DNA of 62,751 nucleotides, filler included, from Collodictyon triciliatum (lineage: Eukaryota): assembly GCA_043381765.1 (NCBI GenBank). It is 46 parts of 46 records of this genome, joined end to end, with 100 filler letters (N's around TTAATTAATTAA, not from the genome) between each part and the next. Parts side by side here need not be neighbours in the genome. Positions count along the whole stretch, not along the records: positions 31,496 to 32,761 come from JBHJMP010011623.1; 45 more parts are not named here. One strand, 5' to 3'. Below are positions 31,496 through 32,761 of this stretch, piece after piece. The position numbers were made by a program, and so were the translations under genes. Position 1 is the stretch's first letter, and every line of letters begins with the position of its first letter. Below the pieces are notes generated by a model. It did no database searches. It was not told where the DNA came from and worked only from the letters and a program-made list of their open reading frames with translations.

Positions 31496-32761
31496 GATGA
31501 AATCAATGATTCGGCTTTTTCGTGTCATAATTTGGCTACCGACACTTATCTGTTGGCGAAATGTTACATATTGAAATCACAACAACTCCCAACAATCGAT
31601 GAAATGTTTTTTTTTTTTTTTTTAAAAAAAAAAAAACCTGAAATGAGTAAAGACATGATGACTTTTTATCTCTATTATTTTCGATTCCTTTTGTCCCAAG
31701 AAGAACGCTTTCCGTTGGTTAGATTGTCTCATGTATTACCGTGCTTGGCGAAACAAGTGCTAACAACTTATCGTAACATTAAGGAGCATTTTGTAAAGAG
31801 GTTAATGCGCTTTATAAATCAAACAATTCCTAAAGATGAAGAATATGACGGAATGTATTAATAAAGGCAGAGTAATGAAGTTAAAAAAAGACATCTTCAA
31901 GAAACTCGAAATACCGGAACAATATGAAGAGTGGGCTACAATACATATGCACCATATCTTCCCAGCGATATTGTAAATGGTATCGAATATGACGCCAAAG
32001 GCAATCCAAATAAGTACATTCCATGTCTGATTTACATGAATCGCATTTTTGAGGACATTGGAACCAAAAACTGTTTCAACCAATCTCTGTAAGAACTACC
32101 AATATACCATGTCATATTACTCTAGATATTGCATGTTTGATAGATCTATTACTATTATCTGGAAAAACATCATTAATGAAGAATATATCAGGATGCAAAG
32201 AGACACTATGGGATAAGTTCTTTGAAATAAAGAAGAGTCTTTCATCAAAGAGACTGCGATTTTAAATACATGAAACAAACAGGCGGCTTGGCGGTGTCAT
32301 TATTGTTTGAAAAGAAAGGTATTTCAAATTCAATTTCTAATTTAATCAAAAAAAAAACCCAAGAACATGTTTATATACATCAACTTTCTGAAGAGCAGGT
32401 ATCTTTATTAGCGAAAAAAAGAAAGTTGGAGTGGACGCAGGCAAGTTTAATTTTGTTTACATGGTGGATGAGGCAGGTAAGAAATTACGTTACACGACAC
32501 ACCAAGGATGACATGATAGTAAATCTCTTAAAAAAAGCCACGAAATACTCTTGCGCGGTAAAATAAATGTACACTTATTCAGGGATATGCATGGCAACAG
32601 ATTCACAAAGTGCTGTTTCTTTTGGTCTCATGACTTTTGAAGAGAATCAGCGGTTTGAGGCATCAAGAGTATCTTAAATCGATTTATTGACAGAACTGAG
32701 TAAACATAATTCATGCACAGTCGATGATGAAAAAATTCGAAAATATGTATCTATGAAATTA
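31496..32761 (+). pseudogene. Fanzor1 (eukaryotic TnpB-like RNA-guided nuclease) remnant, N-terminus through RuvC-I, multiple frameshifts and stops
   Basis: Ordered motifs across frames: INDSAFSCHNLATDTYLLAKCYIL..LPTIDEMF; TTYRNIKEHFVKRLMRFIN; YDAKGNPNKYIPCLIYMNRIFE; RTTNIPCHITLDIACLIDL; QTGGLAVSLLF; YIHQL; VGVDAGKFNFVYMVD (RuvC-I Asp 32434-32436); LRYTTHQ; TELSKHNSCTVD. Confidence 0.82.

What the first reader, a model, noticed from the sequence alone, without database searches (positions are those of the whole stretch)
31496..32761. Fanzor1 RNA-guided nuclease relic, missed by the ORF track
Seen: nine motifs in the expected order across shifting frames, including RuvC-I VGVDAGK (Asp kept, usual Pro changed to Ala), and a ~118-nt interruption at ~32568-32686 that begins GT and is followed closely by ACAG (insertion or intron). 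Known: Fanzor1 proteins are TnpB-derived omegaRNA-guided DNA endonucleases carried by eukaryotic transposons and giant viruses. Inference: this lineage hosts a Fanzor family, and intact copies with omegaRNA and a host transposon may exist elsewhere in the genome. RuvC-II/III, the zinc finger and the omegaRNA are beyond the contig end; this copy is dead.
Basis: partly seen in the sequence, partly recalled or inferred. Interest (0 to 1): 0.72.

Follow-up and report, generated by a model that had tools for sequence, protein, structure and literature searches.

The report
Dead Fanzor1 nuclease gene fragment

Summary
The flagged stretch is one whole 1266-base contig of a fragmented assembly. Seven + strand pieces in shifting frames match, in colinear order, positions 49-478 of a 648-position profile. 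I built that profile from 53 full-length relatives. The pieces score E 1.2e-16 to 0.011 and are the seven best of 2357 six-frame pieces of the whole window; the next best scores 0.21.

The relatives are Fanzor1. P0007 matches the solved Spizellomyces, Parasitella and Guillardia Fanzor1 chains at E 9e-37, 7e-34 and 7e-16, and nothing else at E <= 0.01.

The RuvC-I Asp (VGVDAGK, 32425-32445) aligns with an invariant Asp. The neighbouring Pro, invariant in 53 of 53 relatives, is Ala here.

The copy is dead: six frame changes, two in-frame stops and a 12-15-codon loss at a T17A13 run. Other copies, 80-99% alike, occur in four public runs and carry the compensating indels.

The "interruption" is real extra sequence, but the proposed GT...ACAG intron does not restore the frame.

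The closest intact relatives lie in mariner-type elements on giant-virus-like contigs. New member of a known kind; low interest.

The parts
31496..32761 (+). Whole contig: decayed fragment of a Fanzor1 gene, covering profile positions 49-478 of 648. It lacks the first ~48 residues and everything after the start of the region between RuvC-I and RuvC-II.
   Evidence: contig limits. (profile match: 166 identical residues over 465 alignment columns, 6 frame changes, 2 stops).
31499..31840 (+). Block 1 (frame of 31499): N-terminal helical region with LSHVLP...NIKEHFVKRLMRFIN.
   Evidence: Profile 49-178, E 1.2e-16. 19 library hits at E <= 1e-3. Weak direct hit to Guillardia theta Fanzor1 9cer_P, E 0.29, rank 3 of 177635. 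End of frame fixed at 31840 by P0002.
31607..31636 (+). T17A13 run sitting where relatives and family fragment P0001 have 12-15 more codons: an in-frame loss, or an assembly join at low complexity.
   Evidence: coordinates; gap of 11+4 consensus residues; 12 residues against P0001. notes reads cut at 31597-31644.
31841..31841 (+). Frame change 1: one extra base in the window.
   Evidence: P0002 reads through it. Other copies lack one base at 31840 and/or 31862 (table 4). A 163-nt contig of run X1 is identical to the window over 31775-31937 (table 8).
31842..31958 (+). Block 2 (shifted +1): LKKDIFKKLEIPEQYEEWAT.
   Evidence: Profile 183-224, E 3.1e-4. 26 of 39 identical to P0002.
31958..32059 (+). 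Block 3, after frame change 2 (one base missing after 31958, not in a homopolymer): LPSDIVNGIEYDAKGNPNKYIPCLIYMN.
   Evidence: Profile 220-255, E 1.2e-7. 32 of 36 identical to P0002. Other copies have an extra A behind 31958 in all four runs.
32062..32235 (+). Block 4, after frame change 3 (two extra A in the A5 run 32066-32070): KLFQPISVRTTNIPCHITLD...
   Evidence: Profile 279-338, E 1.4e-14. Other copies lack 2 bases at 32066 in runs X2, X3, X4..
32234..32410 (+). Block 5, after frame change 4 (two bases missing near 32236): FKYMKQTGGLAVSLLF...YIHQLSEEQVSLL.
   Evidence: Profile 337-400, E 1.9e-10. 5 contigs of X2 have GG put in behind 32236.
32410..32562 (+). Block 6, after frame change 5 (in or beside the A7 run 32414-32420): RuvC-I strand VGVDAGK (32425-32445, Asp 32434-32436) and the helix that follows. 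In-frame TGA at 32509-32511.
   Evidence: Profile 396-428, E 8.4e-9. Extended to profile 446 by the frameshift-aware alignment. Asp 53 of 53 and Pro 53 of 53 in relatives.
32563..32686 (+). Extra stretch without profile match ('interruption'), holding frame change 6 and the in-frame TAA at 32675-32677.
   Evidence: 63 codons against 29-40 in 53 relatives. Covered by other copies; TAA is TTA in most of them (32676 A>T). P0022 is open from 32591 on. 11 frame-restoring GT-AG pairs listed, none compelling.
32687..32758 (+). Block 7: TELSKHNSCTVDDEKIRKYVSMK, then the contig ends.
   Evidence: Profile 455-478, E 0.011. P0022 is 44 of 56 identical and runs on past the contig end in frame, still matching relatives. 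Loose ends at 32759 in X3 and X4.

Best explanation
The contig is the 5' two thirds of a pseudogenised Fanzor1 gene. It is one decayed copy of a multi-copy repeat family.

An intact Fanzor1 is a TnpB-derived RuvC endonuclease. It binds an omegaRNA transcribed from the 3' end of its own element and cuts DNA that matches the guide (established for SpuFz1 and GtFz1; inferred here).

This copy cannot work. It has six frame changes, two stop codons, a 12-15-codon loss and a Pro-to-Ala change beside the catalytic Asp. In this assembly it also lacks RuvC-II, the zinc finger, RuvC-III and any 3' non-coding part.

Its closest intact relatives (30-49% identity to the family fragment P0002) are single-exon Fanzor1 genes that sit beside a divergent Tc1/mariner-type DDE_3 transposase. 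In one relative group, the two genes lie inside a ~3.3-kb element with 32-bp terminal inverted repeats. Several of these relatives lie on giant-virus-like contigs from aquatic metagenomes.

Shown: homology, colinearity, decay, multi-copy status, and the architecture of the relatives.
Inferred: the nuclease mechanism, the transposon vehicle of this family, and a cellular host.
For: - Profile test. The seven top hits of 2357 six-frame pieces are all in this contig, on the + strand and colinear. Blocks 4-7 (profile 279-478; E 1.4e-14, 1.9e-10, 8.4e-9, 0.011) lie outside the region used to fetch the relatives, so they are independent of the selection.
- Library search with block 1: 19 hits at E <= 1e-3 among 1.84 billion representatives, including full-length P0007 (E 1.7e-6) and P0019 (E 3e-4).
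- P0007 against the PDB: SpuFz1 E 9.2e-37 over residues 14-607, Parasitella Fanzor1 E 7.2e-34, Guillardia Fanzor1 E 7e-16. These are the only three hits at E <= 0.01.
- Motif conservation in 53 relatives: RuvC-I D 53; E 52; [TS]S 52; Cys 51-52; RD 47-48.
- Decay: frameshift-aware alignments.
- Other copies: 47, 182, 84 and 77 contigs laid from runs X1-X4, spread over 80-99% likeness. They carry indels at 31840/31862, 31958, 32066 and 32236, and TTA for the TAA stop. P0002 reads through frame changes 1 and 2 at 100 of 137 identical.
- Relatives: 80 metagenome loci, most with intact ORFs of 570-742 aa. Of 41 loci with 2 kb or more upstream, 20 have a DDE_3 ORF upstream, and 19 of those 20 are on the opposite strand. 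32-bp TIRs are seen in L003 and L002. NCLDV capsid and other giant-virus-type genes lie beside them, and 43 IMG/VR loci hold relatives.
Against: - No single-frame piece hits Pfam at E <= 10.
- Four of five pieces tried gave no Fanzor hit in the PDB. The fifth gave only E 0.29.
- Only one of the three catalytic motifs can be seen, so nuclease-family membership of this copy rests on homology of the N-terminal two thirds.
- No flank is present, so the transposon vehicle, the omegaRNA and even the host organism are untested. The contig could belong to another organism in the sample than the animal-like genes on neighbouring contigs.
- Three of six frame changes lie in or beside A-rich runs, where assembly errors are common.
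- Only 12 of 83 indel rows and 40 of 446 substitution rows were shown. No row was shown for frame change 5.
Confidence: 0.9

Rival explanations
1. The gene is intact in the organism. On this reading the frame changes and stops are sequencing or assembly errors in a very fragmented, low-coverage assembly.
For: - The window is made of 46 contigs of ~1.26 kb.
- Frame changes 3, 5 and 6 lie in or beside the runs A5 (32066-70), A7 (32414-20) and AAAATAAAT (32560-68).
- The T17A13 run looks like a low-complexity join, and reads are cut there.
Against: - Frame changes 1, 2 and 4 are not in homopolymers.
- Two stops arise by substitution: TGA 32509-11 and TAA 32675-77.
- The Pro that is invariant in 53 of 53 relatives is Ala here.
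- A 163-nt contig in run X1 is identical to the window across frame change 1. X1 may, however, be the source sample.
- Another family fragment, P0001, is itself read from two frames, so decay is common in the family.
Confidence: 0.05
2. The contig is a piece of a giant virus, or of a giant-virus insertion, and not a transposon family of a cellular genome.
For: - The closest intact relatives lie on gene-dense, 20-35% GC contigs with NCLDV major capsid, HSP70 and ribonucleotide reductase genes.
- The same contigs are filed in IMG/VR under names carrying 'GVMAG'.
- Bao and Jurka report that a Fanzor1 mariner element in a Hydra contig is probably viral (section 7 of PMC3627910).
Against: - The best identity to the family fragment P0002 (the query for both scans) is 46% among the 43 viral loci and 49% among the 80 metagenome loci. 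None is of the window's own family.
- The family shows a broad 80-99% divergence spectrum. In run X2, 182 contigs were laid from only 43 million letters. Multiple copies are decayed. This is the pattern of an old repeat family in a cellular genome.
Confidence: 0.1
3. The frame shifts reflect introns of a functional, intron-rich Fanzor1 gene and not decay.
For: - Fanzor genes in eukaryotes have captured introns (passage of PMC10530073).
- The stretch 32563-32686 is extra relative to all 53 relatives, and several GT-AG pairs restore the frame there.
Against: - At frame changes 1-5 the profile match runs on without a gap on either side, with overlaps of 0-2 bases. That leaves no room for an intron.
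- Other copies differ there by 1-2-base indels.
- No contig in the four runs joins across 32563-32686 (table 5).
- The two stops lie in profile-matching or family-conserved codons.
Confidence: 0.03

Closest known systems
Fanzor1 RNA-guided endonucleases with solved structures: Spizellomyces punctatus SpuFz1 (PDB 8gkh), Parasitella parasitica Fanzor1 (9cf0), Guillardia theta GtFz1 (9cer)
   Same: The window's full-length relative P0007 aligns with SpuFz1 over nearly its whole length (E 9.2e-37). The window's block 1 aligns weakly but directly with GtFz1 (LSHVL...NI.HF.K..RFI, E 0.29). The order of blocks is the same, and the RuvC-I Asp is in the same place.
   Different: The window copy is broken and lacks the C-terminal third. 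Identity to these proteins is low, and they come from a chytrid, a mucoralean fungus and a cryptophyte. No omegaRNA can be examined here.
PGv-1-type mariner elements carrying Fanzor1 in giant viruses (Bao and Jurka 2013, Mob DNA 4:12; section 7 read)
   Same: The window's closest intact relatives have this architecture: a Tc1/mariner-type DDE_3 transposase and a Fanzor1 gene, sometimes with an endonuclease-like ORF between them. In L002/L003/L004 the two genes lie inside terminal inverted repeats. Several of these relatives lie on giant-virus-like contigs.
   Different: For the window's own family, no transposase, inverted repeat or flank is available. The family is multi-copy and decayed, whereas the published viral elements are described as single-copy.
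TnpB of IS200/IS605 and IS607 (prokaryotic OMEGA nucleases)
   Same: Same superfamily by the literature (abstract and passages of PMC3627910). The RuvC-I Asp lies after the same kind of beta-strand lead-in.
   Different: No TnpB, Cas12 or Fanzor2 chain appeared at E <= 0.01 when P0007 was searched against the PDB. Pfam's TnpB-type models did not hit the window pieces, and hit P0007 only weakly (PF07282, E 0.0089, below cut-off).
Dead Fanzor1 relics of the CMe-1A family in Cyanidioschyzon merolae
   Same: Same kind of object: frameshifted, truncated Fanzor1 gene copies of a repeat family.
   Different: Another genome and another Fanzor1 family. I did not compare the sequences.

Membership tests
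Fanzor1 | Significant sequence homology to characterised Fanzor1 proteins, closer than to Fanzor2 or TnpB | tested here: met
   Window pieces match a profile of 53 relatives at E 1.2e-16 to 0.011. Relative P0007 hits SpuFz1, PpFz1 and GtFz1 at E 9.2e-37, 7.2e-34 and 7e-16, and nothing else at E <= 0.01. The direct window-to-GtFz1 match is weak (E 0.29).
Fanzor1 | RuvC-I catalytic Asp | tested here: met
   Asp 32434-32436 in VGVDAGK aligns with the Asp present in 53 of 53 relatives. The following Pro (53 of 53) is Ala here.
Fanzor1 | RuvC-II Glu, [TS][TS]-x-x-C4 zinc finger and RuvC-III RD, i.e. the motif D-X(125,275)-[TS]-[TS]-X-X-[C4]-X(5,50)-RD of Bao and Jurka | not testable with these tools
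   The contig ends at profile position 478 of 648. The motifs are present in 47-52 of 53 relatives. No genome is held for the window.
Fanzor1 | Intact reading frame (functional member) | tested here: not met
   Six frame changes, in-frame TGA (32509-11) and TAA (32675-77), and a 12-15-codon loss at 31607-31636.
Fanzor1 | omegaRNA encoded at the 3' end of the gene and element | not testable with these tools
   The 3' end of the gene is not in the contig. In relatives L002 and L003 the stop codon lies ~47 nt from the right inverted repeat, but I made no RNA model.
Fanzor1 | Carried by a eukaryotic transposon or giant virus; multi-copy | tested here: inconclusive
   Multi-copy status is met: 47 to 182 contigs per run at 80-99% likeness in four runs. 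The vehicle is unknown because the contig has no flank. Relatives sit in DDE_3/mariner-type elements.
Fanzor1c subfamily (Jiang et al. 2023; the Fanzor1 clade preferentially linked to Mariner/Tc1) | Placement in that clade of the published tree | not tested
   I saw only the passage stating the association. No reference sequences of the subfamilies were at hand.

The most novel reading that the evidence does not exclude
A high-copy Fanzor1 family, descended from the mariner-Fanzor1 elements of aquatic giant viruses, has colonised the genome of a freshwater animal. The neighbouring contigs of the assembly carry animal-type genes. On this reading the family still has intact, omegaRNA-guided copies elsewhere in that genome. 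That would be a virus-to-animal transfer of an RNA-guided nuclease, followed by amplification.
Probability: 0.15. Interest if true: 0.5.

Novelty: new member of a known kind. Interest (0 to 1): 0.25.

Why it matters
It matters little by itself. Fanzor1 genes and their dead copies are known from thousands of eukaryotic and viral genomes (passages of PMC10530073 and PMC10432273).

Two points give it modest value:
- It marks an unannotated, apparently abundant Fanzor1 family. Its nearest intact relatives are the mariner-borne Fanzor1 genes of giant viruses, so the family could document exchange between giant viruses and a cellular, possibly animal, host.
- The relatives fetched here give a clean set for defining the element ends and the guide RNA of this clade: 53 full-length genes, and 32-bp inverted repeats in one relative group (L002/L003).

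Neither point can be carried further from a 1.27-kb contig without flanks.

Tried and rejected
- Pfam on eight single-frame pieces: 0 families at E <= 10.
- PDB phmmer on pieces 32053-32265, 32392-32640 (TGA as X), 32567-32761 (TAA as X) and 32231-32410: no Fanzor or TnpB chain at E <= 10.
- The search for homologous proteins, 'longer', with 31496-31861 and with 32071-32265: nothing.
- First metagenome scan, with the 70-aa piece: 428 pattern matches, none confirmed.
- The window's own genome is not held, so no search for paralogues was possible.
- The ESM Atlas could not read the piece.
- Earlier notes of this scan: none on this genome or on look-alikes. Notes on Fanzor relics concern another genome.
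- No RNA holder is listed for the stretch. Runs X2, X8 and X17 are only guessed to be RNA, so nothing can be said on expression.
- Shares of words in all runs are small (0.19 or less), so I name no habitat or strain.
- Pfam on 147 ORFs of 75 aa or more from the rest of the window: no TnpB/Fanzor or DDE_3 piece on the other 45 contigs. Three ORFs of the top 150, all lying in the flagged contig and already scanned, were left out. The 64 shorter ORFs of the 214 were not scanned.
- Intron models for 32563-32686:
  - 32558-32693 (136 nt) gives a stop-free join. It leaves a linker of 18 residues against 29-40 in relatives, and its GT is absent from the loose-end consensus of other copies.
  - 32569-32659 (91 nt) gives a linker of about 33 residues but has a poor acceptor.
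  - None was adopted.
- The 93-nt GT..AG joint 32319-32411, seen in one X2 contig, removes profile-matching codons. I take it for a deletion variant.
- I built no tree and no structure model.

Full report
What the stretch is physically. The window is not one locus. It is 46 contigs of 1254-1277 bases joined by N...TTAATTAATTAA...N spacers. The finding, 31496-32761, is exactly one of these contigs (1266 bases, 33% GC). No whole genome is held for the window, so paralogues could not be sought in the assembly itself.

First searches failed. Eight single-frame pieces of the + strand gave no Pfam family at E <= 10. Four pieces gave no Fanzor or TnpB chain in the PDB. Two word-based protein searches for longer relatives found nothing. 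A first metagenome scan found nothing. The one early hint came from the piece 31646-31858. Its third-best PDB hit of 177635 distinct sequences was Guillardia theta Fanzor1 (9cer_P, E 0.29), through a stretch LSHVL...NI.HF.K..RFI.

The route to homologues.
- An exhaustive HMMER search of 1.84 billion representatives with the 121-residue piece 31496-31858 gave 19 hits at E <= 1e-3.
- Two are near relatives: P0001 (74% identity, 139 aa) and P0002 (69%, 137 aa).
- Two are full length: P0007 (634 aa, E 1.7e-6) and P0019 (707 aa, E 3e-4).
- P0007 matches SpuFz1 (8gkh) over residues 14-607 at E 9.2e-37, Parasitella Fanzor1 at 7.2e-34 and Guillardia Fanzor1 at 7e-16. These are the only PDB hits at E <= 0.01.
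- An alignment of the hits (A1) fetched 80 loci from metagenome contigs at 24-49% identity to P0002. Most hold one intact ORF of 570-742 aa.

I built a profile (648 positions) from 53 full-length relatives. I scored it against all 2357 six-frame pieces of 15 residues or more from the whole window, with HMMER's filters off. The seven best pieces all lie in this contig, on the + strand, in colinear order:
- 31496-31858: profile 49-178, E 1.2e-16
- 31818-31973: profile 183-224, E 3.1e-4
- 31928-32089: profile 220-255, E 1.2e-7
- 32053-32262: profile 279-338, E 1.4e-14
- 32231-32563: profile 337-400, E 1.9e-10
- 32392-32508: profile 396-428, E 8.4e-9
- 32678-32761: profile 455-478, E 0.011

The best piece on the other 45 contigs scores E 0.21. 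The relatives were selected by likeness to the part corresponding to window 31658-32065, so the matches from 32062 onward are independent of that selection. A frameshift-aware alignment of the profile consensus to the contig gives one path. It has seven segments, 166 identities over 465 columns, six frame changes and two stops.

The catalytic motif. VGVDAGK lies at 32425-32445. Its Asp aligns with the RuvC-I Asp, which is present in 53 of 53 relatives. The next residue is Pro in 53 of 53 relatives and Ala here. The relatives also keep the Glu (52 of 53), [TS]S (52), the cysteines (51-52) and RD (47-48; five sequences are cut short). This is the constellation that Bao and Jurka give as the family signature (abstract and passages of PMC3627910). 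None of the later motifs can be seen in the window, because the contig ends at profile position 478. Domain names such as WED and REC for the earlier blocks are my recollection and come from no call.

Decay. The frame changes are:
- 31841: one extra base.
- 31958: one base missing.
- 32060-32066: two extra A in an A5 run.
- About 32236: two bases missing.
- About 32411: at an A7 run.
- Somewhere in 32563-32638.

In-frame stops are TGA at 32509-11 and TAA at 32675-77. A T17A13 run (31607-31636) stands where the consensus has 15 more residues and P0001 has 12 more. Laying the contigs of four public runs on the stretch at 80% or more likeness put 47, 182, 84 and 77 contigs on it, spread over all likeness classes.

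Those contigs differ from the window exactly where the frame breaks:
- One base less at 31840 and/or 31862.
- An extra A behind 31958, in all four runs.
- Two bases less at 32066, in X2, X3 and X4.
- GG put in behind 32236, in five X2 contigs.
- One base less at 32568, in three X2 contigs.
- T for A at 32676 in most of the depth of X2, X3 and X4, which turns TAA into TTA.

Only 12 of 83 indel rows and 40 of 446 substitution rows were shown, and none was shown for the change at 32411.

P0002, from another assembly, reads straight through the first two frame changes (42 of 62, 26 of 39 and 32 of 36 identical in the three window frames). So the family once had one open frame, and this copy has lost it. 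P0001 is itself read from two frames, so other copies are decayed too. A 163-nt contig of X1 is identical to the window over 31775-31937, across the first frame change. X1 may be the source sample, so this is weak support that the indel is real.

The 'interruption'. Between the conserved Gln and Leu the window has 63 codons, where 47 of 53 relatives have 29-31 and 6 have 40.
- The stretch is present in other copies.
- Frame 2 (codons starting at 32567) is open through it in the window except for the TAA.
- The family fragment P0022 (79% identity, 76 aa) is open from the equivalent of 32591. It runs past the contig end in frame and still matches relatives.
- Eleven GT-AG pairs do restore the frame, but none has good signals together with a linker length like the relatives.
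- No contig joins across the stretch.

I favour a family-specific coding insertion that carries one more frameshift. An old intron is not excluded.

Whose gene is it? The other contigs carry animal-type domains: NHL, FG-GAP, ephrin-receptor-like/TNFR, B-box, DUF4062 and LRR. But nothing links this contig physically to them. The broad divergence spectrum, the many copies in a run of only 43 million letters (X2), and the decay all argue for a repeat family of a cellular genome. The best identity to P0002 is 46% among 43 IMG/VR loci and 49% among 80 metagenome loci, so the family itself was not found in viral collections.

The relatives. Fifteen larger loci are gene-dense and 20-44% GC. Pfam on 72 neighbouring ORFs found an NCLDV major capsid protein (L039), HSP70 and ribonucleotide reductase small chain (L003), an intein-bearing ribonucleotide reductase large chain (L032), and several DUFs. 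The same contigs appear in IMG/VR under names with 'GVMAG', which I read as giant-virus MAG (recalled). A DDE_3 (PF13358) transposase ORF lies within 3.6 kb upstream of the Fanzor ORF in 20 of 41 loci that have 2 kb or more upstream. It is on the opposite strand in 19 of those 20, and never downstream. L003, L002 and L004 share a 3.3-kb unit (74-80% identity). The unit is bounded by 32-bp perfect inverted repeats in L003 and L002, with the Fanzor stop ~47 nt from the right end. This matches the mariner elements with Fanzor1 described for Phaeocystis globosa virus and a probably viral Hydra contig (section 7 of PMC3627910). It also fits the reported Mariner/Tc1 link of Fanzor1c (passage of PMC10530073). 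Passages of PMC10432273 state that Fz1 occurs in fungi, protists, arthropods, plants and giant viruses.

Mechanism.
- For intact family members I infer the published Fanzor1 mechanism: an omegaRNA from the 3' end of the element guides a RuvC nuclease to matching DNA next to a TAM, in support of the transposon.
- The present copy cannot do this.

Verdict. The interpretation as a dead Fanzor1 relic is supported. The intron detail is not. The object is a new member of a known kind and of low interest by itself.

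Noticed in passing
window 1-62751: The window is a chain of 46 unrelated contigs of ~1.26 kb joined by N/TTAATTAATTAA spacers. Neighbouring 'context' is therefore not genomic context. The contig at 16454-17722 holds 100 N.
   Followed up: yes
window 1-1140, 17884-19089, 59346-60032, 14344-14985, 33467-33754 (-), 8825-9499: Animal-type domains occur on other contigs: NHL repeats, FG-GAP, ephrin-receptor-like/TNFR/WD40, LRR, DUF4062 and B-box. 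This suggests an animal assembly, but nothing links them to the Fanzor contig.
   Followed up: partly
window 42433-42765: An ORF matches zf-RVT (zinc-binding region of reverse transcriptases), E 2.9e-7. It is a retroelement fragment on another contig.
   Followed up: no
window 8237-9506: One 46% GC contig carries four overlapping ORFs of 177-225 aa on both strands, with only weak, patchy Pfam hits. It may be repeat-like or low-complexity coding sequence.
   Followed up: no
L003 6310-9625; L002 174-3503; L004 6302-9624: A 3.3-kb element encodes a DDE_3 transposase and a Fanzor1 gene divergently. It has 32-bp perfect terminal inverted repeats in L003 and L002. The Fanzor stop codon lies ~47 nt from the right end, so any guide-RNA scaffold must overlap the ORF.
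   Followed up: partly
L039 5652-7154, L056 5819-7534, L010 5832-7481, L023 3110-4642: A DUF4379 (treble-clef zinc finger) ORF lies upstream of, and adjacent to, the Fanzor1 ORF in these loci. The L039 and L056 ORFs also carry DUF559. In L023 the DDE_3 transposase lies just beyond it. The layout recalls the transposase-endonuclease-third-gene layout of Bao and Jurka.
   Followed up: no
L004 736-3549 and 6324-9575: Two DDE_3 + Fanzor1 pairs lie on one 10-kb contig. The second Fanzor is only distantly like P0007 (E 8e-15).
   Followed up: no
L032 3-3341 (-): The ribonucleotide reductase large chain is interrupted by an intein with a LAGLIDADG domain. It lies beside a DDE_3-Fanzor1 pair on a giant-virus-like contig.
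   Followed up: no
window 32319-32411: One contig of run X2 skips these 93 bases (GT..AG, in frame), although they encode profile-matching residues. Two other X2 contigs skip or replace overlapping parts. This is a length-variable region of the family, or a cryptic splice.
   Followed up: partly
P0001 (family fragment from another assembly): Its first 41 residues are read from a different frame of the element than its Fanzor-like part. The database protein is therefore a gene call on a decayed copy.
   Followed up: yes
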